Shown piece after piece: positions 28,641 to 53,788 of a stretch of 64,000 nt of DNA. Position numbers and translations under genes: made by a program. Location: NCBI RefSeq assembly GCF_053078305.1, contig NZ_CP166879.1; one strand, written 5' to 3'. Numbering within the stretch: the stretch's first letter is position 1; every line of letters starts with the position of its first letter. The notes below the pieces were generated by a model that saw nothing but the letters and a program-made list of their open reading frames with translations, was not told the origin of the DNA and searched no databases.

Positions 28641-28681
28641 TTTGTTGTGATTGTGAGGTGAGAGTTTTTGCGAGGTGAGGA

Positions 28682-31091: not shown

Positions 31092-31281
31092 ACTGCAGGC
31101 GCTGCGTCAGGCGCGCCTTGATTTATTAACCGGTAAACGGGTGGTGTCTGTCCAGAAAGATGGTCGCAGAATTGAATATACGGCGGCCTCTCTGGATGAG
31201 CTTAACCGTGCGATCAATGATGCTGAGTTGGTACTGGGGACAACCCGCCGTCGCCGTCGTCCGCTGGGAGTGAGGTTATGA
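31075..31281 (+). CDS. W: Head-tail joining protein gpW
   Basis: 68 aa in the lambda W position, with a basic C-terminus. Confidence 0.8.
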   Translation: MVTVAELQALRQARLDLLTGKRVVSVQKDGRRIEYTAASLDELNRAINDAELVLGTTRRRRRPLGVRL

Positions 31282-32098
31282 AACGAACGCCTGTCCTGAT
31301 TGATGTGAACGGCGTTCCGCTTCGGGAGAGCCTAAGCTACAACGGGGGCGGCGCAGGATTTGGCGGGCAAATGGCAGAGTGGTTGCCACCCTCGCAGAGT
31401 GCCGATGCGGCCCTGCTGCCCGCGTTGCGTCTGGGGAATGCCCGTGCAGATGATCTGGTGCGCAATAACGGAATAGCGGCCAATGCGGTGGCCCTGCATA
31501 AGGATCACATTGTCGGGCATATGTTTCTGATTAGCTACCGTCCGAACTGGCGCTGGCTGGGGATGCGGGAGACCGCGGCAAAAAGTTTTGTCGATGAGGT
31601 GGAGGCGGCCTGGTCAGAATACGCAGAAGGGATGTTTGGTGAGATCGACGTGGAAGGGAAACGCACGTTTACGGAATTTATCCGTGAAGGTGTGGGCGTT
31701 CATGCGTTTAACGGCGAAATCTTTGTGCAGCCGGTCTGGGATACGGAGAGCACGCAACTGTTTCGTACGCGTTTTAAAGCCGTGAGTCCGAAACGGGTGG
31801 ACACGCCAGGACACGGTATGGGGAACCGTTTTCTGCGGGCCGGTGTGGAGGTCGATCGATATGGTCGTGCCGTTGCGTACCATATCTGTGAGGATGATTT
31901 TCCTCACTCCGGGAGTGGACGATGGGAACGGATCCCGCGTGAACTTCTCACCGGGCGTCCGGCCATGCTGCATATTTTCGAGCCGGTGGAGGACGGGCAG
32001 ACCCGTGGGGCCAATCAGTTTTACAGCGTCATGGAACGGCTGAAGATGCTCGATTCCCTGCAGGCAACACAGCTTCAGTCGGCCATTGTTAAAGCCAT
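31278..32098 (+). pseudogene. B: Portal protein gpB, 5' part (about 273 codons), interrupted by island insertion
   Basis: Lambda B-like up to ...TQLQSAIVKA, then 17 unrelated codons and a stop at 32150. Confidence 0.9.
32091..32098. repeat. attL core (AAAGCCAT)
   Basis: Identical octamer at 43930-43937. TATG follows 1 nt downstream at both junctions. Confidence 0.7.
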
Positions 32099-32227
32099 TT
32101 ATGTCTATCATCTCCCCGTAGTTGTCCGCATCGTTCGCCAACTCCACTGAAACCCTTGCTGCGGCTGGAATGTCGTTTTCCATACTTTTGATGACCGTTC
32201 ATCACACTTCCAGGTTTTCGCGGTTTT

Positions 32228-32280
32228 GTGTATTGCAATGTGTATTGCAAATTGGCGATCGGGATGGGTGTGTATTGCAA
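32228..32280. repeat. GTGTATTGCAA repeats (candidate integrase arm-type sites, left arm)
   Basis: Three copies at 32228-38, 32240-50 and 32270-80. Two more lie at 43835-57 near the other end. Confidence 0.5.
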
Positions 32281-32298
32281 ATCTCTTGAGGGCTGTTA

Positions 32299-33540
32299 AT
32301 GGCTATTGAAAACAAACTCAGTGACAAACTGTTAAAGAGTCTTGTCGGAAAACGGCAGGACAAACAAAAAACAATAGCGGATGGGCGCGGGTTGTCTGTG
32401 CGTGTAAGCATGGTTGGGGGGATCAGCTTTGTTTTTTACTATCGTCTTGGTGGCAGGGAATCCCCTCCGGTATGGCTTACACTTGGGCGCTATCCTGATA
32501 TGTCTCTTGCAACAGCCAGGCGCATGCGTGATCAGTGCCGTGAGTGGCTGGCTGAAAATCTGGACCCCCGCAGGCAAATAAAACTTGCCGCCGAAAAAAC
32601 CATGCAACCAGTGACCGTAAGGGATGCGCTGTTTTACTGGTACGACAATCACGCCACAACAGCCAGAAAAGAGCATGAATATTTAATAAAACGATTTGAA
32701 AAGCATATCTTCCCCTATATCGGTGATATGGCTATAGAACAGTGCAAATTACACACATGGCTTGCCGTCTTTGACAGGATCAAAAAAAATGCGCCTGTTA
32801 TGTCTGGTGCAATTTTTCTTGATATCAAACAGGCGTTGCGTTTTTGTCGCGTCAGGCAATACATCGCGTGCGATCCCTTTGGCGATATTAACGTAAGTTA
32901 TGTCGGGCGCTCATCCGGTATAAGGGATCGCGTTCTTAATATCAATGAAACAGCGGATGTATGGTCTTATGCTTACGGTAATAATTTGCTGACACTGTCA
33001 TCAATACATAACAGAAGAATAATGGTTATCTGCCTGGTGTTTGGTTGCCGTCAGCAGGAGGCGAGGTTATCCACATGGGACGAATGGGATTTAAAAAACT
33101 GGGTATGGACAGTCCCAAAAGAGCACAGCAAAAACAAGGAGGCCATAGTAAGGCCTGTTCCTGACGGCATAAAACAATGGCTCGTTAATCTTTACGCAGA
33201 AACAAAAAATCGCGGTTATGTTGTCGGTTGTGCTTTGCAAAGGGCGACAATAACAGGGGCTGCAAACAGAATATGCAGGCGTCTTGGTCATGATATTAAT
33301 GGCTTGTGGTGCATACATGATTTCAGGCGCACATTTTCCACTGCGCTTAATGATATGGGGGCGGATCCTTATATTGTCGAACTTCTTTTAGGTCATAAAG
33401 TGAAAGGGGTTGCCGGTGTTTACAATAAAAGCAGGCATATAAAGAAAAAACTTGAGGTGCTTAATATGTGGGTTAATTACCTTAATACGATAGCAGGATT
33501 TAACAACAACGTTATCGAGCTTAATAAAGAGGTGGTGTGA
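32299..33540 (+). CDS. int: P4-type tyrosine integrase
   Basis: 413 aa. N-terminal KLSDKLLKSL...DGRGLSVRV...FVFYYRLGG (DUF4102-like arm-binding domain). C-terminal HDFRRTFST...LLGHKV..VAGVYN. Confidence 0.9.
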   Translation: MAIENKLSDKLLKSLVGKRQDKQKTIADGRGLSVRVSMVGGISFVFYYRLGGRESPPVWLTLGRYPDMSLATARRMRDQCREWLAENLDPRRQIKLAAEKTMQPVTVRDALFYWYDNHATTARKEHEYLIKRFEKHIFPYIGDMAIEQCKLHTWLAVFDRIKKNAPVMSGAIFLDIKQALRFCRVRQYIACDPFGDINVSYVGRSSGIRDRVLNINETADVWSYAYGNNLLTLSSIHNRRIMVICLVFGCRQQEARLSTWDEWDLKNWVWTVPKEHSKNKEAIVRPVPDGIKQWLVNLYAETKNRGYVVGCALQRATITGAANRICRRLGHDINGLWCIHDFRRTFSTALNDMGADPYIVELLLGHKVKGVAGVYNKSRHIKKKLEVLNMWVNYLNTIAGFNNNVIELNKEVV

Positions 33541-33541
33541 T

Positions 33542-33799
33542 ATGGCAATTTATTCTCTTGTTGATGAAAACGATTTGCGCACAATGAAGGACATTGATCG
33601 GTTCATTCGTGAAAAAGAGTGCATAGCACTTACCACGCTGGCAAACTCAACACGCTGGAAAATGGAGCAGGCAGGTAAATTCCCGCGACGTATCAAGATC
33701 GGTGAACGTGCGGCAGGGTATCGACTTTCAGAGGTTCAGGCATGGATCCGTGGTGAGTGGCATCCTGGATGGAAACCTGGAAAAACAAAACAGCAATAA
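33542..33799 (+). CDS. alpA: AlpA-family regulator/excisionase
   Basis: 85 aa with ...STRWKMEQAGKFPRRIKIGERAAGYRLSEVQAWI, the AlpA/Vis-type HTH. Directly after int. Confidence 0.75.
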   Translation: MAIYSLVDENDLRTMKDIDRFIREKECIALTTLANSTRWKMEQAGKFPRRIKIGERAAGYRLSEVQAWIRGEWHPGWKPGKTKQQ

Positions 33800-33812
33800 C
33801 CAGTAAATAACG

Positions 33813-33834
33813 CCCCTCATCAAGAGGGGTTTTT
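33813..33834 (+). terminator. Intrinsic terminator after alpA
   Basis: CCCCTC-ATCAA-GAGGGG followed by T5. Confidence 0.6.
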
Positions 33835-33853
33835 GTCTATAGGGTAAAACGCG

Positions 33854-34432
33854 ATGAATAAAAATATTGCCGTGACGGGCAAGGGGTACGCTCGTCCAGT
33901 GAAAAAATTCTGTGATATTCGTGATCTTGTCGTTCTGCGCTTTGATGGTGTGAGCGTTCGCGTGGTGTATGTGAACGGCGATCCGTGGTTTGTTGCCGTT
34001 GACGTGTGCGCTGCGCTGGAAATTGTTGATCACAAGGTTGCGTTACGCCGTCTCGATGATGATGAAAAGGGGGAGTGTTTAATACCCACCCCAGGTGGAA
34101 ATCAAACAATGCGAACGGTATGCGAGTCAGGGTTCTACAAACTAATCGCCAGAAGTCGGAAAGCTGTTACTCCTGGCACGTTCGCCCGTCGTTTCAGTAA
34201 CTGGGTATTCAGAAATGTGATACCAGGTATCAGAAAAACGGGGGCTTATGGTATCCCGTGGGGGGCATTACAGGATTTTTCCCGCCGTAAAGAGCAATAT
34301 CAAATAAGTGCCAGCGAGAAGGGGAGGGAGCTACAGGCATGTAAGCGCAAAAAACGTGAACTGGAGGAAGAAGAAAAAAGGCTGATACGTGAATATCAGC
34401 CTGAGTTTTACTTTGGTGAGCGTATTCAGTAA
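33854..34432 (+). CDS. BRO-N domain protein (antirepressor-like)
   Basis: ...LRFDGVSVRVVYVNGDPWFVAVDVCAALEI...GGNQTMRTVCESGFYKLIARSR, a Bro-N pattern. Confidence 0.65.
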   Translation: MNKNIAVTGKGYARPVKKFCDIRDLVVLRFDGVSVRVVYVNGDPWFVAVDVCAALEIVDHKVALRRLDDDEKGECLIPTPGGNQTMRTVCESGFYKLIARSRKAVTPGTFARRFSNWVFRNVIPGIRKTGAYGIPWGALQDFSRRKEQYQISASEKGRELQACKRKKRELEEEEKRLIREYQPEFYFGERIQ

Positions 34433-34770
34433 CCACACGCGGTGCTGATTATACGGTACATCGTGTTAACCGAGAAGCTACCCACCAGCAAGGCAAAATC
34501 TTCTGCTAAAAAATGACATATGGCCAGTCGTCCGGAAAGCATGAAATTTTACAAAAATGGAAAATGAAGATTTTTATTGTGCTGGTGGGTAAAAACAAAA
34601 AGCGCCCCGTTGCCGGAGCGCCCTTGTGAACAATTAACCTGCTGCGAAAAAATTGGATCAGTGCAGGGAAATTATATCAACTGTGTGAAGAAGCGCCACA
34701 ATTGCCAGTTTAGCTTTGCGGCGAACGCGTCAATAAAGAATATTCTTTCTTTAAATTCTGTTTGTGTATT

Positions 34771-34800
34771 TTTTCGTAGTTTTTCGTAGTTTTTCGTAAG
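34771..34800. repeat. Three tandem 10-bp repeats TTTTCGTAGT
   Basis: Exact 10-bp periodicity. The same CTACGAAA half site forms a palindrome at 43442-43458. Confidence 0.6.
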
Positions 34801-34895
34801 GAGAAAGAGCGGCGCGTATGCACCGCTAAGGAGTTTATTTTCATGACTTATGCAGCTTTCAATCTTAGCACCGCCGTAGCTGGTGGACAAGGCTA

Positions 34896-35123
34896 TCAGC
34901 CAGGCGGTCGGTTTTTAGTGGCTTTTAACCGCCGTGGGTATTTCTCGACAAAATCTTCAAGGGCAAATTTTTCTGGTGGCACTAAGCGCGGCGCTGGTGG
35001 TGGTATTTTTGTTCTGGTTAGTTCTTCCTCAAGTCTGGCGCAGGCTTCTAACTGCCTTTGCCGGATGATTTCATCATCTTGCGTTTGCGTGTCTTGTATT
35101 GGTGATAGTGTGTTGTTGGTCAT
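34896..35123 (-). CDS. Hypothetical protein (second gene of the leftward regulatory operon)
   Basis: 75-aa ORF downstream of the RHH gene. Confidence 0.4.
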   Translation of the reverse strand: MTNNTLSPIQDTQTQDDEIIRQRQLEACARLEEELTRTKIPPPAPRLVPPEKFALEDFVEKYPRRLKATKNRPPG

Positions 35124-35180
35124 GATACTGCCCTGTAAAGCAATGCGCCGGAGTACCTCACGCCACGGCGCTGATAGTGA

Positions 35181-35486
35181 TTATTCTGATTCTTGGGTCT
35201 TGCGACGCTGGAGTTCTTCGCGTGCAACGGTGACAAGTTGCCCGATTTCTTCCGCTGCTTTGATGCCGATTTGTTCGACCTTAGCCAGAGCATCCAGTGA
35301 AGACACAAGGGGATTTTCTCCGCTGCCTTCTGCCTGGCGGCGGGCGATTTCACCGCGCATGGCGGTTACTATGAATCCGGCGTTGCTTTCACCGTCCAGT
35401 TTTACGGATTCCATGCCTTCAATAACATCATGCGGGATCCGAGCTGTCAGTGATTGTGATTTTGCGTTTTTTGAACCTGTAGCCAT
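35181..35486 (-). CDS. Ribbon-helix-helix (Arc/CopG-like) regulator
   Basis: ATG at 35486 with RBS GAGAGGA. N-terminal KSQSLTARIPHDVIEGMESV beta-strand/helix pattern. Divergent from the rightward operon. Confidence 0.55.
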   Translation of the reverse strand: MATGSKNAKSQSLTARIPHDVIEGMESVKLDGESNAGFIVTAMRGEIARRQAEGSGENPLVSSLDALAKVEQIGIKAAEEIGQLVTVAREELQRRKTQESE

Positions 35487-35507
35487 CTGTAATCCTCTCA
35501 ATGAAAG

Positions 35508-35576
35508 TGTAAGACAATATACACATAAAAAGTCTTACATAAAAGCATTGACATGTAAGCCACCTATAAATAAAGT
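35508..35576. promoter_or_regulatory. Operator palindrome plus rightward promoter
   Basis: TGTAAGAC (35508-15) and GTCTTACA (35532-39) form an inverted repeat. TTGACA (35548-53), 17 bp, TAAAGT (35571-76). Confidence 0.45.
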
Positions 35577-35805
35577 TACTTACACCTTGTTAATGCAAGG
35601 TGCAGAAACGACGAAACCCGGCAGTGCGCTAACACTAACCGGGCTTCTAACCACCAACGATAGAAAGCGTATCGAGGTAGCTATGAGAAATCATACCACA
35701 CACCCGCAAGGGCGGGACTCGCACAACCTGAATAAATACATCTGGCGTTTTCTGGCCCGAAAAAACCAGTTGATCGCCAGTGTCGAAAATAGCTATGATT
35801 CCCGC

Positions 35806-35883
35806 GCACCTCATAAAACGGGTGCCGGGATTGGCGTCCTGGGCAAAACTGAAGCGCATAACACGCGCCCCGCGTGTTTTTTT
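35806..35883 (+). ncRNA. C4 / IsrK / P4-CI-like small RNA element in the island leader
   Basis: GCACC-TCATAAAACG-GGTGC; CCGGGA-TTGGCG-TCCTGG; ACACGCG-CCC-CGCGTGT plus T7. Loop 2 is complementary to ACGCCAA at 35963-69. Homologous to 6877-6801. Confidence 0.55.
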
Positions 35884-36045
35884 GTGCCGCATAGTCACAC
35901 CTTATCAATGGTGGGCTGTACGGGGGCGGAGCAATCCGCGCCGGTTTCTTCAGTGTCCGGTTACGCCAACCCTGTACAGTCCGCCACCAGCGAAATTGGC
36001 GTTTCCGGTGGCGGTTATCTTAACCACACTGAGGAGGCTGCCAAC

Positions 36046-36237
36046 ATGGCTACTATCCCTACCCTTGTACATTCTCAAACCGCCTTTCTCTGGCGCTTTA
36101 TCATCTTTGGCGCGTCAGACCATCAAATCATCCACGTCACCGCCTGGACGGAACGCGAAGCGCGTAGCCGTTGCCCGTCCGGTTGTGTTGCTGTATTCGC
36201 CGCCCGTATTCGTCAGGAGGTGTGCCATGTGCAATAA
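36046..36237 (+). CDS. Icd-like small protein (host cell-division inhibitor family of P1/P4-type elements)
   Basis: RBS GAGGAGG. MATIPTLVHSQTAFLWRF...VTAWTEREARSRCPSG... Has the same first 7 codons as the helper rha gene. Confidence 0.5.
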   Translation: MATIPTLVHSQTAFLWRFIIFGASDHQIIHVTAWTEREARSRCPSGCVAVFAARIRQEVCHVQ

Positions 36238-36484
36238 AACCACACCGGACGCAGCCGCCGCGCTCACTACACTGATGCACGCGCTGATTGATATTTCTGT
36301 TATTGCTGACAGGGCGCATAAGCACGCCACCAGTGAAACAGAATATGCCGGGGCTTTCGTTCCTCATTCGCTGGCGGTTATGCAACTTAGTGCTGATATG
36401 GCGCTGAATGAGGCCAAAGCTATCCTGATTTCTGATTGTGAAAATGGGGGGGGGTTATGCGTGATGATCGTTTTAATGCCCTGA
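36227..36484 (+). CDS. Hypothetical protein
   Basis: 85 aa, RBS AGGAGG. Overlaps the icd-like stop. Confidence 0.4.
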   Translation: MCNKTTPDAAAALTTLMHALIDISVIADRAHKHATSETEYAGAFVPHSLAVMQLSADMALNEAKAILISDCENGGGLCVMIVLMP

Positions 36485-36678
36485 AACAGGAGTTTGATGG
36501 TGCGCCTGATGATGCAGGTGATGCGCTTTCGTCAATATCCGAACTGATAAGAGTGGCCTTTTTCTTACTTGGCACGAAAGAATATAAATCAACTGGAATA
36601 GACGTACTGAATATTACTGCTGATTATGCGGAATATATGGCAGAAGTGGATTTAAGAAAGATAACGGACAGGGGGTAA
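36457..36678 (+). CDS. Hypothetical protein
   Basis: 73-aa coupled ORF. Confidence 0.4.
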   Translation: MRDDRFNALKQEFDGAPDDAGDALSSISELIRVAFFLLGTKEYKSTGIDVLNITADYAEYMAEVDLRKITDRG

Positions 36679-36679
36679 T

Positions 36680-36913
36680 ATGCGTGATATTTACCACGAA
36701 ACAATAGACCGCGCATTTAGTGCCCTTGCTTACGCTGAAGGTATGTACGAAATATTGCAAATGTGTCTGGAAACATTTGGCGATAATGAGCGTGATGTAA
36801 AGAAGGCGCGGATTATTAAATCACTGATAACTCTCCTTGAACCTGTAATAACAGAGTTGCAGGAAATAGACTTATTGCACGACAGATATAACGAACAGCA
36901 CACCGGAGAATAA
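36680..36913 (+). CDS. Hypothetical protein
   Basis: 77-aa coupled ORF. Confidence 0.4.
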   Translation: MRDIYHETIDRAFSALAYAEGMYEILQMCLETFGDNERDVKKARIIKSLITLLEPVITELQEIDLLHDRYNEQHTGE

Positions 36914-36918
36914 AAATA

Positions 36919-37218
36919 ATGAAACTTAAATATCCTGGCTTAACTGCCAGTGGCAACACTCACCCTAAATTTACGCGCGGTGATATTTACCGCGACCAGT
37001 ACGGCGGCACGGTAATGATTAAGGGCGTGGCGGGACGGTGCGTAACTTACCGCCGTGAAGGCTACGAATATGATTGCGTGATGCCTGTTTATCAGTTCCG
37101 GCGTGATTTTTCTCTGGTACAGACCGCGCCGCATAACGTGCCCACCAGCAACGCCAGGGCACGGGCAAACATCCAGAAGCTGAAAACCATGATTAACGGA
37201 TTCAGGGGTAAAAAATGA
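36919..37218 (+). CDS. Hypothetical protein
   Basis: 99-aa coupled ORF. Confidence 0.4.
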   Translation: MKLKYPGLTASGNTHPKFTRGDIYRDQYGGTVMIKGVAGRCVTYRREGYEYDCVMPVYQFRRDFSLVQTAPHNVPTSNARARANIQKLKTMINGFRGKK

Positions 37219-38624
37219 AACTGGCACCGAACGTAAAACGATTACCGAAAGATAAATACACCGAAGCGGTTATTTTTGCGGGTATTGATGCTCACTCATT
37301 CGCAGAGCATTACATCATTGCACAGGCCAAAAAAGCAGGCGATCCAGTCCCTCCCGTTTATCTGGGGCGTTATCAGTTAAGCGAACTGGATAACCTCCAG
37401 ATTGTTGATGATGGGCGATACAGGGCGACGGTGATACGCGCCGGAAATATTGAAGAGCCGCAGCTGTTAACCATCGCCACGAAACTGGCGAGCGCCGGAG
37501 TCCAGGAGGCGCGGCTACTTTCTGAAAATTTCGAATTGCTGGAGGAATGGAGCGACCAGCTTCCACGGCTTAGGGAGGCATGGGAACGCGGGGAAAGCCT
37601 GGTCATGAAAAAAATTCCCCAGCGAAAAACCACGCTACCGATGAGCGTTGGATCTACCGGATACGACACACAGCTTGATTACGTGGTAAAGGGGATTATT
37701 CCGGCATCGTCGCTTTGCAGCATATACGGGGCGAGCGGTTCCTATAAATCATTCCTTGCCGGATCGTGGGCGTGTCACGTTTCCACGGGCCGCCAGTGGG
37801 GAGGCCGCAGGGTGGCGCATGGCGCTGTTCTCTATGTGGTTGGTGAAGGCGGTATCGGCGTTCCGCGTCGTGTAAAAGCCTGGGAGGTTGTGCACGGTGA
37901 GCAGGTGAAAAATCTGTATCTGGTAAACCGTCCCATCTTTCCGGCTGTCCCGCTTGATGTTGATGAACTGGTTATTGCTGCCAGTCAGGTGGAGAGGGAA
38001 ACGGGTAAACCTGTTCGCATGATTATTCTGGACACGCTGGCGCGTTGCTTTGGCGGCAATGATGAAAATGACTCCCGCGACATGGGGGCATTTATCCGTG
38101 GTTGTGACGAGCTTAAACGGCGCACAGGGGCTACGGTGCTGGTGGTTCACCATTCCGGCAAGGATGAAACAAAGGGGGCGCGTGGTTCCAGTGCATTTCG
38201 TGCATCACTGGACGCTGAATACCGGATACGCAGGGAGGACGCAGGAAGCGAAGCGCTGGTTATCTCATGCACCAAAATGAAGGACGCGGAGGAACTCAAA
38301 GAGGCTGCCTATGATTTGCGGGTGGTGGAGCTTTTTACCGACGCTGACGGGGAGTTAATTACGTCGCTGGTGGTGGTGGATAAGCCGCGCCCTCCCGTTG
38401 AACTGGAGCGCATCGAGGAGGCAGGCAACAAGACGGAAAACCATACCGCGCTATGGGGGTGCATCCGTTCACGCACACAGAACGGCGACAAGTGCACGAT
38501 CCCGCTGTTACGTGACGATATGAAAAAGCTGGGGTATGACACAAAACACCTTAAACGATGGTTAGCCAAACTGGAAAAAGACGACGTGATCTACATTGAC
38601 GGTGATGATGTAGGACCACTGTAA
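37215..38624 (+). CDS. Replication protein with RepA/AAA_25-type RecA-fold ATPase domain
   Basis: Walker A-like YGASGSYKSF, MIILDTLARCFGG..ENDSRDM and LVVHHSGKDETKGARGSSA motifs typical of RepA-like helicases. Iterons follow. Confidence 0.65.
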   Translation: MKLAPNVKRLPKDKYTEAVIFAGIDAHSFAEHYIIAQAKKAGDPVPPVYLGRYQLSELDNLQIVDDGRYRATVIRAGNIEEPQLLTIATKLASAGVQEARLLSENFELLEEWSDQLPRLREAWERGESLVMKKIPQRKTTLPMSVGSTGYDTQLDYVVKGIIPASSLCSIYGASGSYKSFLAGSWACHVSTGRQWGGRRVAHGAVLYVVGEGGIGVPRRVKAWEVVHGEQVKNLYLVNRPIFPAVPLDVDELVIAASQVERETGKPVRMIILDTLARCFGGNDENDSRDMGAFIRGCDELKRRTGATVLVVHHSGKDETKGARGSSAFRASLDAEYRIRREDAGSEALVISCTKMKDAEELKEAAYDLRVVELFTDADGELITSLVVVDKPRPPVELERIEEAGNKTENHTALWGCIRSRTQNGDKCTIPLLRDDMKKLGYDTKHLKRWLAKLEKDDVIYIDGDDVGPL

Positions 38625-38825
38625 AAAGTGGGCATTAAAAGTGGGAAAGGTGGGCGATTTAACGTAATTTTAACAAAATCACCCACTTTCCCACGTGTAT
38701 ATATCCCAAAAAGTGGGCACTAAAAAAATACCTATGAAACAAGATGATATAAATCCCAAACTTCCCACGTTGGACGAAGTGGGAAAACGTAAAAAGTGGG
38801 CGAAAAAAGTGGGTAGAGGTGGGCG
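38620..38825. repeat. Island ori candidate: AAAGTGGG iterons
   Basis: At least 8 direct (A/G)GTGGG copies (38627, 38640, 38649, 38712, 38778, 38795, 38808, 38818). Inverted copies at 38682-94 and 38764. Located directly 3' of rep. Confidence 0.6.
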
Positions 38826-38826
38826 A

Positions 38827-39078
38827 ATGACTCAAAAACACAGAGACAGAACAGAGCCAAAATATAAAGCGTTAGACATGACAGAGCACGCTTTAAAGGT
38901 GGCAATCAGGGTAATAGACCGCCACACGCGGGAAGGATACGCGAAGGAACATCCCGACCTGATAAGCGCATTCATGACCACAGCGGCGGCAAACTTTGCC
39001 ACGCTGACAGAACGGGAGATAGCCGAAGCGGAACAGGTAACAACCATCAACGTTAAAACCGGAGAGGTGGAATCATGA
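38827..39078 (+). CDS. Hypothetical protein
   Basis: 83 aa from the ATG at 38827. Longer starts (38695 GTG) would read through the iterons. Confidence 0.35.
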   Translation: MTQKHRDRTEPKYKALDMTEHALKVAIRVIDRHTREGYAKEHPDLISAFMTTAAANFATLTEREIAEAEQVTTINVKTGEVES

Positions 39079-39485
39079 CAGCACAGATAGCCGCTTACGG
39101 GCGGCTGGTGGACGACCCGCAGGTAAAACAAACCAGCAAGGGCACACCGATGACGCTGGCGCGTATGGCGGTATCTCTGCCATGCAGCCAGGCACAGGAC
39201 GGGCAGGCTACGTTATGGCTATCAGTGATGGCATTTGGTAAGCAGGCCGACTTCCTGGCTAAACATCAAAAAGGCGATGTTGCCAGCGTATCCGGCACGA
39301 TGCAGGTAAGCCAGTGGACCAGACAGAACGGGGAAACGCGGCAGGGTTATCAGGTTATTGCAGACAGTGTAATCAGTGCCCGTGCTGCCCGTCCTGGCGG
39401 GAGCAGACGTACAACCACAGGCACACAGGGTAATCAGCCACCAGCGGGAGGCGATGACCCTTACGGTGACGGTATTCCGTTCTGA
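39075..39485 (+). CDS. ssb: Single-stranded DNA-binding protein
   Basis: OB-fold N-terminus, Gly/Pro-rich linker and an acidic tail DDPYGDGIPF. Confidence 0.8.
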   Translation: MTAQIAAYGRLVDDPQVKQTSKGTPMTLARMAVSLPCSQAQDGQATLWLSVMAFGKQADFLAKHQKGDVASVSGTMQVSQWTRQNGETRQGYQVIADSVISARAARPGGSRRTTTGTQGNQPPAGGDDPYGDGIPF

Positions 39486-39495
39486 GGGGGTGACG

Positions 39496-39768
39496 ATGGT
39501 ACATGACCGCATAGCGGAGGAACTCGAGGCAAAAGGCTTTTACCGGAGGGCGGCGGCGCGATGGGGTGAAGTTATGCAGCTGGTGGAGACAGACAAGGAA
39601 CGGCATCAGGTTACGATGCGACGGCTGGAATGTTCCAGGAAGGCACAGAGGCCACCGGAGCCGCCGGATAACTTCGGAGACCTGAAAAAAGCAGTAGATC
39701 GCACTTATGCCGAAATGGGTATGGATGGTGTAAGCGATGAAATATGGCGTAATTACCCAGACAGCTAA
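39496..39768 (+). CDS. PerC-like transcriptional activator
   Basis: MVHDRIAEELEAKGFYRRAAARWGEVM.. resembles the recalled PerC-family N-terminus. Confidence 0.45.
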   Translation: MVHDRIAEELEAKGFYRRAAARWGEVMQLVETDKERHQVTMRRLECSRKAQRPPEPPDNFGDLKKAVDRTYAEMGMDGVSDEIWRNYPDS

Positions 39769-39774
39769 TCAACA

Positions 39775-39796
39775 GCCGGAGAAATCCGGCTTTTTT
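39775..39796 (+). terminator. Intrinsic terminator
   Basis: GCCGGAGAAATCCGGC plus T6, identical to the hairpin at 42049-42071. A second hairpin lies at 39810-39845. Confidence 0.65.
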
Positions 39797-40007
39797 GTAC
39801 CCAAAAAAAGCCCGATAAGTACAGGAGGCATCTTATCGGGCTTTTGCATATGAGGTTTTTTTGGTGCACTGACACACATGATCGGGGTAATCATTTCATA
39901 ATTTGCAACACAACTCAACATCATTGCACAAAATGCAATCCTGATTATAATCAGAGCTGGATGAACATCCAGTTCTGATTTTTTAAGTCAAAGAGGAATT
40001 TCTTACT

Positions 40008-40214
40008 ATGGCTGAAGAGAAAAAAGGCGGTGTTTCGGTGTACATAAGCCCCGAAATCGTGGAGGTGCTCAAGCAGCGCCACAAAAAAAACTATGAGGCT
40101 GGCGTAGCGGCTGGACTGGATCCGCTGATGACGCCGGAGCCGTCGATAGGTTCACTTGTGCGCTCTTATTTACTTGCGGCGCTTGGGATGCATAAAAATT
40201 ATGGTGGTGAATAA
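40008..40214 (+). CDS. Hypothetical small protein, first gene of the island head operon
   Basis: 68 aa, RBS AAGAGGA. Stop overlaps the capsid-gene start. Confidence 0.4.
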   Translation: MAEEKKGGVSVYISPEIVEVLKQRHKKNYEAGVAAGLDPLMTPEPSIGSLVRSYLLAALGMHKNYGGE

Positions 40215-41269
40215 TGACAGTAAAAGCAATGGCACTTACAACTAACCAGCTTTTCGCGTACCTGAATCGCGGGGATATTGCAGAATTTAAATTCAGTCCG
40301 CTGTTTACCACGCTGTTTTTCCCGAACGTGGCGACCTTCAACACCCAGAACATCATGCTGGACACCCTGGACATTGAAGAGGTTACGATGTCAGCGTTCT
40401 GTTCGCCTATGGTGGGTAGTCAGGTCCAGCGCGATAAAGGGTACGAAACCAGCACGATTAAACCAGGCTACATGAAACCCAAACACGAAATCGATCCAAC
40501 AAAAACCATCATGCGCATGGCTGGAGAAGATCCGGCACAGCTTAACGACCCTACCTACCGCCGTATGCGCCTGATTACTGGCAACATGCGCCGCCAGATA
40601 AACGCCATTAAAGCGCGCGTGGAATGGCTGGCGGTGAATGCGATAACGACCGGAAAAAACATCATTGAGGGCGAAGGCATAGAACGCTATGAAATCGACT
40701 GGAAAATACCGGAAAACTGCATCATAGAGCAGGCCAAGGGTAAAAAATGGTCCGAGCATGATAAAGATATTTACGATCCAATCTATGACATCGAACTATA
40801 CGCAGATCAGGCAGGTTGCCCCGCCAACGTCATGATTATGGGCGCTGAGGTATGGCGCACGTTACGCAGCTTTAAAAAATTCCGCGAACTGTACGATCTT
40901 TCCCGTGGTTCAGAATCCGCCGCAGAACTGGCCTGTAAAAACCTGGGTGAAGTAGTGAGCTTTAAAGGCTATCTGGGCGATATTGCCCTTATCGTCTATT
41001 CCGGCAAATACACTGACAGCGACGGTACCGAAAAATATTTCCTTGAGCCTGATTTGCTGGTCCTGGGTAACACCAACAATAAAGGGCTGGTGGCCTATGG
41101 TGCGATTATGGATCAGGAAGCGGTAAGAACGGGCGCAACGCAAAACATGTTCTACCCGAAAAACTGGATTGAAGACGGCGATCCGGCGATTGAGTACGTT
41201 CAGACGCACAGCGCACCGCAGCCGGTACCGGCAGATATTCGCAAATTTGTTACCGTCAAAATTGCTTAA
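40214..41269 (+). CDS. Lambda gpE-family major capsid protein paralogue (E')
   Basis: 351 aa. Shares PGY.KPKHE, GEDPAQLNDP.YRR, VVSFKGY.GD, DGTEK, YPK.W and GDPA.E blocks with helper E (46646-47674). Confidence 0.85.
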   Translation: MTVKAMALTTNQLFAYLNRGDIAEFKFSPLFTTLFFPNVATFNTQNIMLDTLDIEEVTMSAFCSPMVGSQVQRDKGYETSTIKPGYMKPKHEIDPTKTIMRMAGEDPAQLNDPTYRRMRLITGNMRRQINAIKARVEWLAVNAITTGKNIIEGEGIERYEIDWKIPENCIIEQAKGKKWSEHDKDIYDPIYDIELYADQAGCPANVMIMGAEVWRTLRSFKKFRELYDLSRGSESAAELACKNLGEVVSFKGYLGDIALIVYSGKYTDSDGTEKYFLEPDLLVLGNTNNKGLVAYGAIMDQEAVRTGATQNMFYPKNWIEDGDPAIEYVQTHSAPQPVPADIRKFVTVKIA

Positions 41270-41280
41270 CGGGGGATTCT

Positions 41281-41616
41281 ATGGACACTCCATACATTGA
41301 GTTATTTGCAGGCAGTCAGCAGGTATCCACGACGCTGGTACATTTTGCCGCTGATGCTGGCGTTATTCAGGAATTTACCCCGCTGATGCTGGCGGACAAT
41401 GGCGAGTTTAAGCCGTGGGATGGTCAGGAATCTGGCAAGGCTGTTTATCTGACCTCGTACCCCGTGGACACGTCAAAGCAGAAATCAGCACAGTGTTACA
41501 AGACGGGGATATTTAATATCGCCGCCGTAAACTGGCCTGAGAGCGCCGACACTGACGCGAAAAAATGCGCCGCCTTTGCGGGTTCTGGCGTATCCGTTCA
41601 GCCGCTGGCGCGATAA
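41281..41616 (+). CDS. Lambda gpD-family head decoration protein paralogue (D')
   Basis: 111 aa. Shares TPLML, WDGQ, YK.G.F, WPES and AF.G blocks with helper D. Confidence 0.75.
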   Translation: MDTPYIELFAGSQQVSTTLVHFAADAGVIQEFTPLMLADNGEFKPWDGQESGKAVYLTSYPVDTSKQKSAQCYKTGIFNIAAVNWPESADTDAKKCAAFAGSGVSVQPLAR

Positions 41617-41628
41617 GCAGGGGAAACG

Positions 41629-42042
41629 ATGGCAACGAATGAAAGCATCATGGCGCTACCGCTGGCGAGTAAATTTAAAGCAGAAGCGCGGGCAATGGCT
41701 GACAGAGGTTTATCAACCTACGAGGCCGTATATCAACTCAACAAACTGGAAGAGCAGGACAAGCCGCGCGCTGATGCGATTATGGCGCTTCATGAACATA
41801 ACGACTATCAGCCGCTGTTACGTGCAATGGCAAACGTGCCATGTATTAGCGTCGATAATGCTCGTGAAATCCTGAACATGACCATAGAGCAGGAGCGCCC
41901 AAAGGTTGCGCCGGAGCTTACCGCAGCCTTTGAAAACTTTATGGACATGCACAGCCCGAAAGCCGTATCACCCGGCATGGCATACGACGGCAGAAACCAG
42001 GGCGATGAAGGCGACGTCGATCGCATACTGAAAACCATCTGA
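41629..42042 (+). CDS. Nu3-like scaffolding protein (Nu3')
   Basis: The tail LTAAFENFMDMHSPKAVSPG...GDEGDVDRIL parallels the helper gpC tail TTALFEHFMANHSPAAVQGG...GDADVKML. Also IMALHE...ISVDNAREIL versus IMALDE...MTVESARAVL. Confidence 0.65.
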   Translation: MATNESIMALPLASKFKAEARAMADRGLSTYEAVYQLNKLEEQDKPRADAIMALHEHNDYQPLLRAMANVPCISVDNAREILNMTIEQERPKVAPELTAAFENFMDMHSPKAVSPGMAYDGRNQGDEGDVDRILKTI

Positions 42043-42048
42043 CATAAG

Positions 42049-42071
42049 GCCGGAGAAATCCGGCTTTTTTT
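42049..42071 (+). terminator. Intrinsic terminator abutting the island cos
   Basis: GCCGGAGAAATCCGGC plus T7. Confidence 0.65.
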
Positions 42072-42073
42072 AC

Positions 42074-42140
42074 GGGTCCTTTCCGGCATATGGACCCGTT
42101 ACGGGGCGGCGACCTCGCGGTTTTTCGCTATTTATGAGCT
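42074..42140 (+). promoter_or_regulatory. Island cos site 2 (same orientation as helper cos)
   Basis: 42074-42120 is identical to helper 28457-28503, including GGGCGGCGACCT (42104-42115). The downstream cosB-equivalent is different. Confidence 0.85.
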
Positions 42141-42248
42141 TTTTTCGGGTGCTGGTGGTGGTTTTGTTGTTCGCTCTATCTCTATGAATAAAAAGGGAAA
42201 GATAAAACCAATACACCAACCTGAAACATTACTTAAGTGGGGATATTG

Positions 42249-42791
42249 ATGAAATCGCACCTGATGAACAAAAAAAACATGGCGCAAAGCTGCCGTGTAA
42301 GTGCGACAGCGTTCGACAAGTGGGGAGTGACTCCCGTTGAACGTAAAGGACGCGAGGCTTTTTACGATGTTGCCAGCGTGATAGACAATCGGGTAAGCAA
42401 TGCAATTAACCAGGTTACAAACGACAAAGGCGAGATTGATGATGATGAACTCTTACGAGTCAGGATCAGATTACTGACCGCCCAGGCTGAGGCGCAGGAA
42501 CTTAAAAACGAGCGCGATCGCGGTGACGTAATTGATACTGAGTTTTGCCTGTACGCGCTTTCAAAGCTGGCGAGTCAGATTTCTTCAATCATGGACAGTT
42601 TGCCGCTTACCATGCAAAGGCGCTTCCCGCAGATTACTCCCGCTATGCTGGATGGGCTTAAAAGGGAAGTGGTTAAAGCCTGTAATGCCAGTGCCACAGT
42701 TGCCGACAACCTCCCGAAGATACTGGCTGATTACCTGATGGAAACTACCGGAGACGTACCGGAGAAGTTGCTACAGAAGAAAGGCGAGTAA
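42249..42791 (+). CDS. Nu1-family terminase small subunit paralogue (TerS')
   Basis: N-terminal MNKKNMAQSCRVSATAFDKWGV resembles lambda Nu1 (VNKKQLADIFGASIRTIQNW). The C-terminal FCLYALSKLASQISSIMDSLPLTMQRRFPQI..ILADYL parallels the helper TerS. Start 42237, 42249 or 42264. Confidence 0.8.
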   Translation: MKSHLMNKKNMAQSCRVSATAFDKWGVTPVERKGREAFYDVASVIDNRVSNAINQVTNDKGEIDDDELLRVRIRLLTAQAEAQELKNERDRGDVIDTEFCLYALSKLASQISSIMDSLPLTMQRRFPQITPAMLDGLKREVVKACNASATVADNLPKILADYLMETTGDVPEKLLQKKGE

Positions 42792-42940
42792 CAGACGCGC
42801 AATTATTGAACAAAAGTAAGGCCCGACATGAAATCACCCAAAAATGCCTTTTTCATGCGTTTGTATGTCTGACCTTTTACGGTTTCGATATTATAAAAAA
42901 CAAATAGTTACGCTCGAGAGGTACCGACACGCATTTTTCA

Positions 42941-43014
42941 GGAAAATTTTCATAAACAGATAAAAACCGCGAGGTCGCCGCCCCGTAACGGGCCATAATT
43001 CCAGGAAGGACCCG
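42941..43014 (-). promoter_or_regulatory. Island cos site 3 (inverted, diverged flanks)
   Basis: Reverse complement reads GGGTCCTTCCTGGAATTATGGCCCGTTACG-GGGCGGCGACCT-CGCGGTTTTTATCTGTTTATGAAAATTTTCC. The core lies at 42972-42983. Confidence 0.8.
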
Positions 43015-43047
43015 ACGACACCAGGCTATCAGAACGATGAGGGCACA

Positions 43048-43329
43048 ATGACAGAAGCCGAACTACTGGGATTAATCCGCTACGTTACCGGAATCAGCCA
43101 GCAGCATGACGAACAGGCCACGCAGCCGGACAGCGTGACCGCTGAAAATTATGCGCGTGTTGTTGCTGAGGTGATGCGCCGTGATGGTATCCAGCTTAAT
43201 GATGCAGATATGCGCGACATACGGATCCGCGTTCTTGAAATGCTGGCCTACCGTCGCCGCGTGCAGACGTACAGGGAAAAAGCAAAAATAACGTACCAGT
43301 GGAAGAAGCCGGAGCGATTACGGCGGTAA
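43048..43329 (+). CDS. Hypothetical protein
   Basis: 93-aa ORF, last gene before the right arm. Confidence 0.4.
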   Translation: MTEAELLGLIRYVTGISQQHDEQATQPDSVTAENYARVVAEVMRRDGIQLNDADMRDIRIRVLEMLAYRRRVQTYREKAKITYQWKKPERLRR

Positions 43330-43441
43330 CTTGCTGATATTCCCGATAACGCAAAATTGCGCTCTGTCCTAACCCGTTGATATTTTCGGGAACAGCCAAC
43401 GGCTGAGGCCGGAACAACGATTATCTTTCAGATAGTCAGAG

Positions 43442-43458
43442 CTACGAAATTTTCGTAG
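43442..43458. repeat. Palindrome CTACGAAA-T-TTTCGTAG
   Basis: Perfect 8+1+8 inverted repeat of the half site that is repeated at 34771-34800. Confidence 0.6.
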
Positions 43459-43724
43459 TTTAATTACTCGCCAGTTTATCGTTAACTCGTTGATATTTTC
43501 GGTAACCTCAATTTGAGGAGATCGGAAACATAACCCTTCACATTCTGAATGGTTATAATGACCACTCAGACCATCAAGGCAACCATAACGAACATCGTTA
43601 CGGTTGGAGCTTTTACCCCACTGGGGGGAAGGTGCACATCTGGATCATCATTACCGTGATCAAGGGTATGTAAAACCCACCAGCCTGATTAACTGTTAAC
43701 CGGAAAAAAGCCAGGTAGCCAATC

Positions 43725-43748
43725 TCGATATGGGGATCCCCATATCGA
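43725..43748. repeat. 24-bp perfect palindrome TCGATATGGGGATCCCCATATCGA
   Basis: Read directly from the sequence, in the ORF-free right arm. Confidence 0.6.
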
Positions 43749-43834
43749 CATTAACGCCCCCTAGAACTGCGCATATCTGCATATAAAAACATCCACCAGC
43801 TTTATGACGGATGCCGCTCATCTGATAAATAATC

Positions 43835-43857
43835 GTGTATTGCAATGTGTATTGCGA
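43835..43857. repeat. GTGTATTGCAA repeats (right arm)
   Basis: GTGTATTGCAA at 43835-45 and GTGTATTGCGA at 43847-57. Confidence 0.5.
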
Positions 43858-43929
43858 CTCCTTTAAACGATAGGTTTGAGCATTCGTAATGTACTGTTTT
43901 TAAATTTTATTTTTTCCTGTCTTTTCATA

Positions 43930-44709
43930 AAAGCCATGTATGCAGCGACGATTGAAAGTGAACTTGATACCGAAAAGGCCTTTGAATATATCGCCGGTGC
44001 GCCGCAGGGGCAGAAGGATAATCCGCTTATTAATATTCTGGATAAGTTCTCCACCTGGTATGACACGAATATCGTGACGCTGGGCGGTGTCAAAATTCCG
44101 CACCTTTTCCCCGGTGATGATCTGAAACTTCAGACCGCGCAGGATTCAGACAATGGATTTTCGGCGCTTGAACAGGCGCTGCTGCGGTATATCGCCGCCG
44201 GTCTTGGCGTTTCCTACGAACAGTTGTCCCGTGATTACTCGAAGGTCAGTTATTCAAGTGCCCGCGCCTCCGCCAATGAGTCGTGGCGCTATTTTATGGG
44301 ACGACGAAAATTTATTGCAGCCCGGCTGGCCACGCAGATGTTTTCCTGCTGGCTGGAAGAGGCACTTCTTCGGGGGATTATCCGTCCGCCACGGGCACGT
44401 TTTGATTTTTATCAGGCGCGTTCAGCCTGGTCGCGGGCAGAGTGGATTGGCGCAGGAAGAATGGCCATTGACGGGCTCAAGGAGGTCCAGGAATCAGTGA
44501 TGCGCATTGAGGCCGGACTGAGCACGTATGAGAAAGAGCTGGCGCTGATGGGTGAGGATTATCAGGACATTTTCCGCCAGCAGGTCAGGGAATCCGCAGA
44601 GCGGGAAAAAGCCGGACTCTCACGTCCGGTGTGGATAGCGCAGGCGTATCAGCAGCAGATAGCAGAGAGCCGCAGGCCGGAAGAGGAGACAACACCACGT
44701 GAGACGTAA
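43930..44709 (+). pseudogene. B: Portal protein gpB, 3' part
   Basis: KAMYAATIESELD...LLRYIAAGLGVSYEQLSR...ARASANESWRYFMGRRKF...GAGRMAIDGLKEVQE is collinear with the recalled lambda B C-terminal half. Codons upstream of 43930 are island DNA. Confidence 0.9.
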
Positions 44710-52292: not shown

Positions 52293-52363
52293 AATAAAAA
52301 AATAACCCGAGCGGCGACTCAGGTTATTTGATTAAACAAGGTATCAAATGAAAGGTTAATAAT

Positions 52364-53787: not shown

Positions 53788-53788
53788 G

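What the first reader, a model, noticed from the sequence alone, without database searches (positions are those of the whole stretch)
42049..42240. The island cos copies the helper's cosQ/cosN base for base but has a different cosB
Seen: 42074-42120 is identical to helper 28457-28503 (GGGTCCTTTCCGGCATATGGACCCGTTACG GGGCGGCGACCT CGCGG). This includes the 12-nt lambda-type cohesive-end sequence as I recall it. Downstream the two diverge. The helper has three AACCGGACATG repeats (28536-46 inverted, 28594-604, 28624-34), an R-site-like arrangement. The island has none of these before its own Nu1-like gene. The island cos is abutted by a terminator hairpin (42049-71) identical to the one at 39775-96. 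Inference: the nicking site is the same, so the helper TerL could cut it, but a private cosB is read by the island TerS. That would be a packaging-specificity swap.
Basis: partly seen in the sequence, partly recalled or inferred. Interest (0 to 1): 0.75.

Follow-up and report, generated by a model that had tools for sequence, protein, structure and literature searches.

The report
Satellite cos site with private cosB
A small phage satellite sitting inside a prophage's portal gene keeps the phage's DNA-cutting site but pairs it with its own recognition site and its own small terminase; this strategy is already known for this island family, here using a full terminase subunit instead of the usual adaptor protein.

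Summary
42073-42120 equals 28456-28503 exactly (cosQ, spacer, cosN GGGCGGCGACCT). Similarity continues at 90% to 42149, then stops. The helper's CATGTCCGGTT boxes are absent from the island.

The island (about 32104-43929) is a helper-embedded PICI of the EcCICFT073 family, split precisely into portal site B:Phage_portal_2:241. "Same cosQ/cosN, private cosB" is already published for this family, where the adaptor Rpp reads the private cosB. Here a full-length Nu1-family TerS with an N15-type DNA-binding domain occupies the rpp slot.

Comparative evidence supports TerS reading the adjacent cosB:
- the DNA-binding domain and the 133-nt cosB are co-conserved across islands while the cosQ-cosN spacer varies;
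- a natural chimera with a phage-21-type domain carries a 21-like cosB.

- a second, inverted cos (42792-43015) with a phage-21-type cosB;
- the cassette between the two cos sites occurs in both orientations in other genomes;
- the exact spacer is also in EcCICFT073, so it is not copied from this helper.

The helper is also broken by a Mu-like prophage in gene Z. TerS'-TerL pairing is untested. Verdict: a variant of a known kind, of moderate interest.

The parts
28457..28463 (+). helper cosQ (GGGTCCT)
   Evidence: Sequence. The cosQ identity rests on my own knowledge of lambda and on PMC9026076.
28487..28498 (+). helper cosN, the 12-nt cohesive-end sequence GGGCGGCGACCT
   Evidence: Phage 21 and N15 records start at this 12-mer.
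28536..28642 (+). helper cosB. R boxes CATGTCCGGTT at 28536-46 (forward), 28594-604 and 28624-34 (inverted), plus a degenerate forward copy at 28631-42.
   Evidence: The same cosB type is found in 1118 complete E. coli genomes and in cos2 of EcCICFT073.
28682..29191 (+). helper TerS (Nu1 family)
   Evidence: Pfam PF07471 E=1e-18; PHROG terminase small subunit.
29163..31091 (+). helper TerL (gpA ATPase plus nuclease)
   Evidence: Pfam GpA_ATPase and GpA_nuclease; start chosen.
31278..32103 (+). helper portal gene, 5' part (portal nt 1-826), ending at the attL core AAAGCCATTTATG (32090-32103)
32104..43929 (+). helper-embedded PICI, about 11.8 kb. Gene order: int, AlpA, Bro-N, Ash/Icd-like, DUF4222, RepA-like helicase, iterons, SSB, PerC, gpE-like capsid, gpD-like decoration, phrog_1999, cos1, TerS', cos2, phrog_1561.
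   Evidence: The site equals the published B:Phage_portal_2:241 (PMC10111431).
42049..42071 (+). intrinsic-terminator hairpin abutting cos1
   Evidence: (D10).
42074..42080 (+). cos1 cosQ (GGGTCCT)
42104..42115 (+). cos1 cosN
42116..42149 (+). cos1 I2-like segment, still homologous to the helper and to lambdoid phages
   Evidence: D1. Phage similarity stops at 42149.
42151..42163 (+). candidate R3 of the private cosB: GCTGGTGGTGGTT at bp 48-60 from the cohesive end. This is the position of N15 R3 (GAGGTTGTTGTTT).
   Evidence: Alignment A2. A (GGT)n motif sits at the same position in an Enterobacteriaceae homologue. N15 R3 position is from PMC9026076.
42213..42221 (-). candidate inverted R2-like box (ACACCAACC on the top strand), bp 110-118
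   Evidence: Conserved in four islands. It covaries with the forward box in L018 and in the N15-type cos of L001. This assignment is inference.
42249..42791 (+). island TerS' (180 aa, Nu1 family, N15-type winged-helix domain)
   Evidence: Pfam PF07471 84.9 bits. 46% identity to N15 gp1. Alignments A1 and A7. Only residues 54-167 align to helper TerS, at 48% identity.
42792..42971 (-). cos2 cosB, phage-21 type. R3 is at 42919-42934, a degenerate R2 at 42862-42877, and R1 at 42818-42833.
   Evidence: 80% identity to phage 21 M81255 161-331, which has annotated R boxes. Alignment A5.
42972..43013 (-). cos2 cosN (42972-83) and cosQ (43007-13), inverted relative to cos1
   Evidence: (I1, I2).
43048..43329 (+). 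conserved island gene phrog_1561, the fixed right flank of the cos cassette
   Evidence: same position in L001, L004, L005, L007 and L010.
43930..44709 (+). helper portal gene, 3' part (portal nt 814-1593), starting at the attR core AAAGCCATGTATG

Best explanation
Coordinates 42049-42240 are the principal packaging site (cos1) of an 11.8-kb phage-inducible chromosomal island. The island is embedded in, and co-oriented with, the portal gene of a lambdoid prophage.

cos1 keeps the parts of a lambda-type cos that the large terminase subunit uses. These are cosQ for termination, cosN for nicking, and the I2-like segment. It replaces the part read by the small subunit.

The island's own TerS' has an N15-type winged-helix domain. 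I infer that this domain binds an island-specific cosB: a (GGT)n box at bp 48-60 and an inverted box at bp 110-118. I also infer that its Nu1-like C-terminal half recruits the helper's TerL. TerL would then nick the shared cosN and package island concatemers rightward, ending at the next cosQ/cosN.

Helper TerS has no boxes in the island, and TerS' has none in the helper. The two genomes would therefore compete for one TerL with mutually exclusive recognition. This is the same logic as Rpp in EcCICFT073 and TerS in pac-type SaPIs.

A second, inverted cos with a phage-21-type cosB gives a second, phage-type entry point.

Shown: the sequence anatomy, the homologies, the co-conservation and covariation of DNA-binding domain with cosB, and the precise embedding in the portal gene. 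Inferred: TerS' binding to cosB, TerS'-TerL pairing, cutting at 42104-42115, and interference with the helper.
For: 1. Exact 48-nt cosQ-cosN identity, with no helper R boxes in the island.
2. TerS' is a full-length Nu1-family protein. Its first ~53 residues are unrelated to helper TerS, while residues 54-167 are 48% identical. The N-domain is N15-like.
3. Across three islands, TerS' residues 1-49 differ at one position, against 22 or more changes in residues 124-177. The 133-nt cosB keeps its length and nearly its sequence, while the cosQ-cosN spacer has three variants.
4. A natural swap exists. P0100 has a phage-21-type DNA-binding domain fused to a C-terminal half that is nearly identical to that of TerS' (one difference in the last 88 residues). 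Its adjacent cosB is 21-like, on the same island backbone.
5. A (GGT)n motif sits at the R3 position in a 56%-identical Enterobacteriaceae homologue whose remaining cosB has diverged. Forward and inverted boxes covary in L018 and in L001 cos2.
6. Sister islands have RppA or RppC in the same slot between the same two cos sites. In those islands the private-cosB mechanism has been shown experimentally (PMC6739421).
7. The module is present in 487 of 5426 complete E. coli genomes.
Against: There is no experimental evidence for any binding or cutting step.

The C-terminal, presumed TerL-binding region of TerS' is no closer to this helper's TerS than to lambda or N15. The L006 variant is actually closer to the helper type. 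TerL N-termini differ between phage types. Compatibility with this helper is therefore unproven.

The candidate R3 matches N15 R3 at only 8 of 13 positions. The R2-like box is short.

Plasmids carrying PICI cos sites are transferred at a low level without Rpp (PMC6092414). cosB reading is therefore not absolutely required.

The helper here has lost the end of gene Z to a Mu-like prophage. In this genome the pair may no longer make infectious particles.
Confidence: 0.6

Rival explanations
1. Rpp-like mode. TerS' does not act alone. It forms mixed oligomers with the helper's TerS through the conserved central region. The hybrid complex reads the island cosB, and the helper TerS supplies the matched TerL contact.
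For: Residues 54-125 (oligomerisation region) are about 48% identical to helper TerS. Rpp occupies the identical slot in sister islands and works by heterodimerising with phage TerS. The TerS' C-terminus is not matched to this helper.
Against: TerS' keeps a full-length Nu1-type C-terminal region that Rpp lacks (alignment A1; PMC9026076). That region is conserved in length and carries an island-specific tail, which suggests it is used. TerS' gives no detectable sequence match to Rpp (compared).
Confidence: 0.15
2. TerS' is mainly an interference or decoy protein that titrates TerL. The island is packaged through whichever cos matches the helper's TerS (the cos2 type) or through weak non-specific use of cos1.
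For: The island carries a complete phage-type cos2. Other islands carry cos2 of other phage types, including this helper's type. PICI cos plasmids transfer at a low level without Rpp.
Against: In this window cos2 is 21-type and does not match the resident helper's CATGTCCGGTT boxes. L006 and the Enterobacteriaceae islands have only cos1 plus TerS. The strong co-conservation of DNA-binding domain and cosB argues for a specific protein-site pair.
Confidence: 0.12
3. Inert relic. The helper and island are a decaying composite, and the cos identity only reflects common ancestry or gene conversion between neighbouring repeats, with no current packaging role.
For: The helper is interrupted by a Mu-like prophage in gene Z. 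Spacer variants are shuffled between phages and islands, and some islands carry the same spacer at both cos sites. This indicates recombination or conversion.
Against: All island ORFs are intact. The att junctions are precise. terS' shows mostly synonymous change: 27 synonymous against 13 non-synonymous codons versus L004. The module is kept in hundreds of genomes at several integration sites.
Confidence: 0.08

Closest known systems
EcCICFT073 and its Rpp/cos1-cos2 packaging module (Fillol-Salom 2018, PMC6092414; 2019, PMC6739421; Murialdo & Feiss 2022, PMC9026076)
   Same: Same late-zone backbone: gpE-like capsid, gpD-like decoration, phrog_1999, cos, one small gene, inverted cos, phrog_1561. 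cos1 has the identical cosQ-spacer-cosN string. cosQ/cosN are shared with helpers but the cosB is private. There are two cos sites.
   Different: The slot holds a 180-aa Nu1-family TerS with its own C-terminal half instead of the 144-153-aa Rpp, so helper TerS may not be needed. The private cosB has (GGT)n on the top strand, whereas the Rpp-type has ACCACCACC. This island is embedded in a prophage portal gene rather than next to phoQ.
Lambda, 21 and N15 packaging-specificity groups (Feiss laboratory)
   Same: A common cosN and cosQ with divergent cosB, read by the N-terminal winged helix of the small subunit. The TerS' domain is N15-like, and cos1 has a short N15-like layout with a box at bp 48-60.
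   Different: Here the two specificities sit in a parasite and its host phage rather than in two independent phages. The box sequence differs from N15 R3 (8 of 13 positions match).
pac-type SaPIs (SaPI1, SaPIbov1), which encode their own TerS
   Same: The satellite supplies a TerS homologue that pairs with helper TerL and redirects packaging to satellite DNA.
   Different: SaPIs use headful pac packaging, need a separate Ppi to block phage TerS, and are unrelated in sequence. Here packaging is cos-type with a shared nicking site.
cos satellites that carry the helper's whole cos (P4, SaPIbov5)
   Same: A satellite packaged through a cos site that the helper terminase can cut.
   Different: Those satellites rely on the helper's TerS and its recognition site. 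Here the recognition part is replaced.
Helper-embedded PICIs (Tommasini, Mageeney & Williams 2023, PMC10111431)
   Same: Integrated in and co-oriented with a lambdoid late gene at the published site B:Phage_portal_2:241. It has the same zone order, and an att-proximal doubled motif is present.
   Different: The described prototype 11capE lacks terS and shares about 258 bp of cos with its helper. Here only about 83 bp is shared and a terS is present.

Membership tests
lambda-type cos site | 12-nt cohesive-end sequence at the position where related phage genomes begin | tested here: met
   GGGCGGCGACCT at 42104-15. Phage 21 and lambda-like records start at the matching base, and N15 annotates its first 12 bases as the sticky end.
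lambda-type cos site | cosQ heptamer about 30 nt upstream, and an I2-like segment downstream of cosN | tested here: met
   GGGTCCT at 42074-80. 42116-42149 is homologous to lambdoid phages. The role of cosQ is from the literature.
lambda-type cos site | cosB with TerS-binding R sequence(s) near bp 48-65 | tested here: inconclusive
   A conserved (GGT)n box lies at bp 48-60 and an inverted box at bp 110-118. They are co-conserved with the TerS' DNA-binding domain and covary in relatives. No binding data exist.
lambda-type cos site | cleavage by terminase to give cohesive ends | not testable with these tools
   Requires sequencing of virion DNA ends.
Gram-negative PICI (EcCICFT073 family) | int, alpA, replication module with ori, unidirectional genes, 10-20 kb, no lysis or tail genes | tested here: met
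   int, AlpA, Bro-N, RepA-like helicase, SSB and PerC. Iterons at 38623-38808 (D5). Size 11.8 kb.
Gram-negative PICI (EcCICFT073 family) | late zone with capsid and decoration homologues, and cos site(s) flanking a packaging-redirection gene | tested here: met
   Same order as in CFT073.
Gram-negative PICI (EcCICFT073 family) | induction and high-frequency transfer by a helper phage | not testable with these tools
   Experimental.
Helper-embedded PICI | [quoted passage not shown] | tested here: met
   Portal nt 1-826 and 814-1593 flank the island with a 13-nt core. Pfam Phage_portal_2 positions 2-241 and 235-354. This is the published site B:Phage_portal_2:241.
Helper-embedded PICI | integrase belongs to the HE-PICI clade | not tested
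   No phylogeny was made.
Rpp (redirecting phage packaging) proteins | sequence homology to RppA/B/C and a short protein lacking the Nu1 C-terminal region | tested here: not met
   TerS' gives no PDB match to 6hlk/6hn7, whereas the L001 protein in the same slot matches RppC at E=6e-31. TerS' is full length.
Phage_Nu1 small terminase | Pfam PF07471 above the gathering score, plus an N-terminal winged helix | tested here: met
   84.9 bits against a cutoff of 30. Aligns over residues 5-163 with N15 gp1.
Phage_Nu1 small terminase | C-terminal binding to a cognate TerL | not testable with these tools
   Only homology of the region is shown. TerL N-termini vary.
capsid-forming PICI (cf-PICI) | encodes its own TerL, portal, protease and capsid (HK97/HNH type) | tested here: not met
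   The island has no TerL, portal or protease gene.

The most novel reading that the evidence does not exclude
The two inverted cos sites bound a dual-specificity, invertible packaging cassette. One cos is read by the island's own TerS or Rpp. The other carries a phage-type cosB that differs from island to island. The segment between the two cosN sites flips because terminase cuts at both sites leave a fragment with two identical cohesive ends, which can rejoin in either orientation. The alternative is short-homology recombination at cosN. This would be a terminase-driven DNA inversion and a way for satellites to shuffle helper range.
Probability: 0.3. Interest if true: 0.7.

Novelty: new variant of a known kind. 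Interest (0 to 1): 0.45.

Why it matters
The cosB-swap strategy of E. coli PICIs appears not to be tied to Rpp. The same slot can hold a complete small terminase, and its DNA-binding domain and cosB are exchanged as a unit (N15-like or 21-like).

This gives a natural series for dissecting how lambda-type terminases couple site recognition (TerS with cosB) to a shared nicking site (TerL with cosN).

It also gives a sequence rule for predicting which phages can mobilise which islands. Members of the family include the O157:H7 OI-51 island, which carries virulence regulators.

The second, phage-type cos and the flipped cassettes are cheap to test. They could explain the unexplained cos2 of EcCICFT073.

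Tried and rejected
- Two scans of species-representative genomes with TerS' peptides found nothing. The cross-species survey therefore rests on protein hits and three context look-ups.
- PDB sequence searches with TerS', helper TerS and phrog_1561 gave no meaningful match.
- I aligned TerL N-termini to judge TerS'-TerL compatibility. The result was uninformative.
- The consensus terminator scan missed the 42049 hairpin, probably because the stem extended into the T-run. Folding confirmed it.
- Short-repeat searches inside cos1 alone gave only low-complexity pairs. The R-box assignment rests on comparison between islands, not on internal repeats.
- cf-PICI was considered and rejected: the island has no TerL, portal or protease.
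- I considered that the Chi site inside the R3 candidate is functional there. It is absent in L004, L005 and L006, so it is incidental to cosB.
- I considered that the helper-island identity is a local gene conversion. The same string in CFT073, L001 and L004 argues against this. The helper-type phage of STEC2018-607 has it too.

Full report
**Observation**

The stated identity is real. 42073-42120 equals 28456-28503 base for base (48 nt). The homologous block runs for 83 nt at 90% identity, 42067-42149 against 28450-28532. It covers cosQ (GGGTCCT), a 23-nt spacer, the 12-nt cohesive-end sequence GGGCGGCGACCT and an I2-like segment.

Phage 21 and lambda-like genome records begin exactly at this 12-mer, and N15 annotates its first 12 bases as the sticky end. 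After 42149 the similarity ends, both to the helper and to every phage in the collection.

A fourth, degenerate copy makes the last box palindromic. The hairpin at 42049-71 is identical to the one at 39775-96, and both fold like intrinsic terminators.

**What the element is**

The region from about 32104 to 43929 is an 11.8-kb island that splits the prophage's portal gene cleanly. Portal nucleotides 1-826 lie to its left and 814-1593 to its right, with a 13-nt core duplicated at the junctions.

The island encodes, in order:
- an integrase, AlpA, a Bro-N protein and an Ash/Icd-like protein;
- DUF4222, a RepA-like helicase followed by iterons, SSB and PerC;
- gpE-like capsid and gpD-like decoration homologues, and a phrog_1999 protein;
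- the cos site, a small-terminase homologue, and a phrog_1561 protein.

This is the organisation of Gram-negative PICIs. [quoted passage not shown] A related island in strain AREA_492 sits in the terminase large-subunit gene instead. Others sit at chromosomal sites, including the O157:H7 island next to phoQ.

The late zone is collinear with EcCICFT073 of strain CFT073. The cos1 of EcCICFT073 has the very same cosQ-spacer-cosN string as the window.

**Comparison with the literature**

[quoted passage not shown] Their cosQ/cosN match those of helper phages, but they lack the phage cosB. The island protein Rpp binds the phage TerS so that the complex reads the island's cosB and no longer the phage's (PMC6092414, PMC6739421).

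Murialdo and Feiss proposed an R3-like Rpp site at bp 48-65 and noted the N15-like layout (PMC9026076).

What differs here is the protein in the slot. In AREA_492 and CFT073 the slot holds an Rpp (match to RppC structure 6hlk at E=6e-31). In the window it holds a 180-residue Nu1-family protein (PF07471, 84.9 bits) with no detectable match to Rpp. The 2018 paper mentions that some Gram-negative PICIs carry a terS homologue but does not study them.

**Does TerS' read the private cosB?**

Six lines of comparative evidence support it.

1. TerS' and the helper TerS align only over residues 54-167 (48% identity). The first ~53 residues, which form the winged-helix DNA-binding domain, are unrelated.
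2. That domain is clearly N15-like (AFDKWGV.PVE..GRE; 46% identity to N15 gp1 over residues 5-163).
3. Among islands from three other genomic contexts, the 133-nt interval from cosN to the start codon keeps its length and almost its whole sequence. The cosQ-cosN spacer upstream comes in three variants. Over the same comparison TerS' residues 1-49 change at one position, while residues 124-177 accumulate more than twenty changes.
4. A natural chimera (P0100) has a phage-21-type DNA-binding domain joined to a C-terminal half that is nearly identical to that of the window's TerS' (one difference in the last 88 residues). On the same island backbone, its adjacent cosB is 21-like, with R3 reading AATCATGTCGGTACTG.
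5. At bp 48-60, exactly where linker scanning placed N15 R3, the TerS'-type sites read G(C/G)TGGTGGTGGTT against N15's GAGGTTGTTGTTT. A 56%-identical Enterobacteriaceae homologue keeps GGTGGTGGTG there, although the rest of its cosB has diverged.
6. An inverted box (ACACCAACC, bp 110-118) sits at the lambda R2 position. In L018 and in the N15-type cos of AREA_492, the forward and inverted boxes change together.

These points make a specific TerS'-cosB pair likely. None is a binding assay.

**What is not supported**

The identical cosQ-spacer-cosN string is not a copy of this particular helper. The same string occurs in EcCICFT073, in the AREA_492 island (whose helper has a different spacer and a 21-type cosB) and in a chromosomal island. 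Typical phages with this helper's cosB type carry a lambda-like spacer instead. Spacers and cosB modules are evidently reassorted among phages and islands.

The presumed TerL-binding C-terminus of TerS' is not specially similar to this helper's TerS. TerL N-termini vary among phage types. Whether this prophage's TerL is a partner remains open.

**The second cos**

Its downstream region, running back toward the 3' end of terS', is 80% identical to phage 21 cos. The 21 R3 and R1 boxes are intact and R2 is degenerate.

The second cos has a different cosB type in each of the other islands I examined:

| Island | Type of the second cos |
|---|---|
| SCU-106 | mixed 21/lambda-like |
| O157:H7 island | a TCAGATCC type |
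| AREA_492 | exact N15 R3 |
| EcCICFT073 and a sister island (L007) | the CATGTCCGGTT type of this window's helper |
| L006 and the Enterobacteriaceae islands | none |

The published statement that EcCICFT073 cos2 lacks a phage cosB therefore seems to reflect the phages it was compared with. In the three cases where a resident lambdoid prophage could be read, cos2 did not match that prophage's cosB (window, AREA_492, CFT073). Three cases are too few to call this a pattern.

**Cassette orientation**

The segment between the two cosN sites occurs in both orientations relative to the fixed flanks.

- The identical RppA protein is on opposite strands in CFT073 and L007.
- The identical P0100 cassette is flipped between L012 and L011/L013. 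The breakpoints lie inside CCCGTTACG-cosN-CGCG.
- I built the junction predicted for a flipped version of the window's own cassette. It is present at full length, at 92-97% identity, in five complete genomes, against 155 genomes for the native junction. Strain 2014C-4587 confirms terS facing the capsid genes.

Either short-homology recombination or terminase cutting at both sites followed by rejoining would produce this. Cutting at both sites leaves a fragment with two identical cohesive ends. I cannot tell the two apart.

**State of the helper**

The prophage runs from an integrase at 1447-2721 through early and lysis genes to cos, then Nu1, A, W, the split B, C, D, E, FI, FII and Z. Gene Z is truncated at 48953 by a Mu-like prophage carrying a repressor, MuA, MuB, Gam and gp27. 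In this genome the helper is probably defective. The packaging module should be judged by its conservation across the lineage rather than by this locus alone.

**Verdict**

The TerS-for-Rpp substitution with modular exchange of DNA-binding domain and cosB, and the dual, invertible cos cassette, are the parts I could not find described in the searched literature.

Noticed in passing
window 48940-64000: A Mu-like transposable prophage is inserted in the helper's tail gene Z, which ends prematurely at 48953. The prophage carries a c-type repressor at 49246-49764 on the minus strand, MuA at 50184-52292, MuB at 52364-53296, Gam at 54650-55180 and gp27 at 61511-62092. Repeated TTGATAC(C/T)G motifs at 48958-49110 look like transposase end-binding sites.
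   Followed up: partly
window, whole; island 32104-43929: Chi (GCTGGTGG) occurs 27 times in the window, against 2.3 expected. Fifteen copies lie in the 11.8-kb island (9 plus strand, 6 minus strand), 12 in the helper early and lysis region (3.6-27.6 kb), and none in the helper head genes or the Mu-like element. One copy overlaps the candidate R3 but is not conserved in other islands.
   Followed up: partly
L010 (NC_004431.1 1385000-1430000) 3090-3330: EcCICFT073 cos2 carries three CATGTCCGGTT boxes, which is the cosB type of this window's helper and of prophages in 1118 complete genomes. The published work states that no phage cosB could be identified in that island.
   Followed up: partly
L011, L012, L013, L014, L007 vs L010: The cassette bounded by the two inverted cosN sites is found in both orientations with identical content. 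The crossover is confined to about 25 nt around cosN. A synthetic flipped junction for the window's cassette matched five genomes at full length.
   Followed up: yes
P0100; L012 3001-3585: A natural chimeric island TerS: a phage-21-type DNA-binding domain joined to a C-terminal half that is nearly identical to that of the window's TerS' (one difference in the last 88 residues), with a 21-like cosB upstream.
   Followed up: yes
L001 20307-20360; L010 2572-2625: The Rpp-type private cosB has ACCACCACCAC at bp 55-65. This is the reverse complement of the (GGT)n box of the TerS'-type cosB at nearly the same distance from cosN. I have no explanation.
   Followed up: no
L018 1240-1252: A 74%-identical TerS' relative from a metagenome contig sits behind a cos whose 12-mer reads GGGCGTCAGCGT instead of GGGCGGCGACCT. 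This may be a variant cohesive end.
   Followed up: no
window 32227-32282 and 43835-43859: GTGTATTGCA repeats occur next to both att junctions: doubled at 32228-48 and 43835-55, with a further copy at 32269-82. They are likely the doubled attP motif reported for helper-embedded PICIs (arm-type integrase sites).
   Followed up: no
window 38623-38808: Three copies of AAAAAGTGGGCATTAAAA spaced 83-85 nt apart lie just after the RepA-like helicase gene. This is probably the island replication origin.
   Followed up: no
L015-L017, 4059-5416: Enterobacteriaceae helper-embedded islands in the capsid gene E carry a TerS homologue followed by FRG-domain and DUF3892 genes on the opposite strand. These may be accessory or defence cargo.
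   Followed up: no
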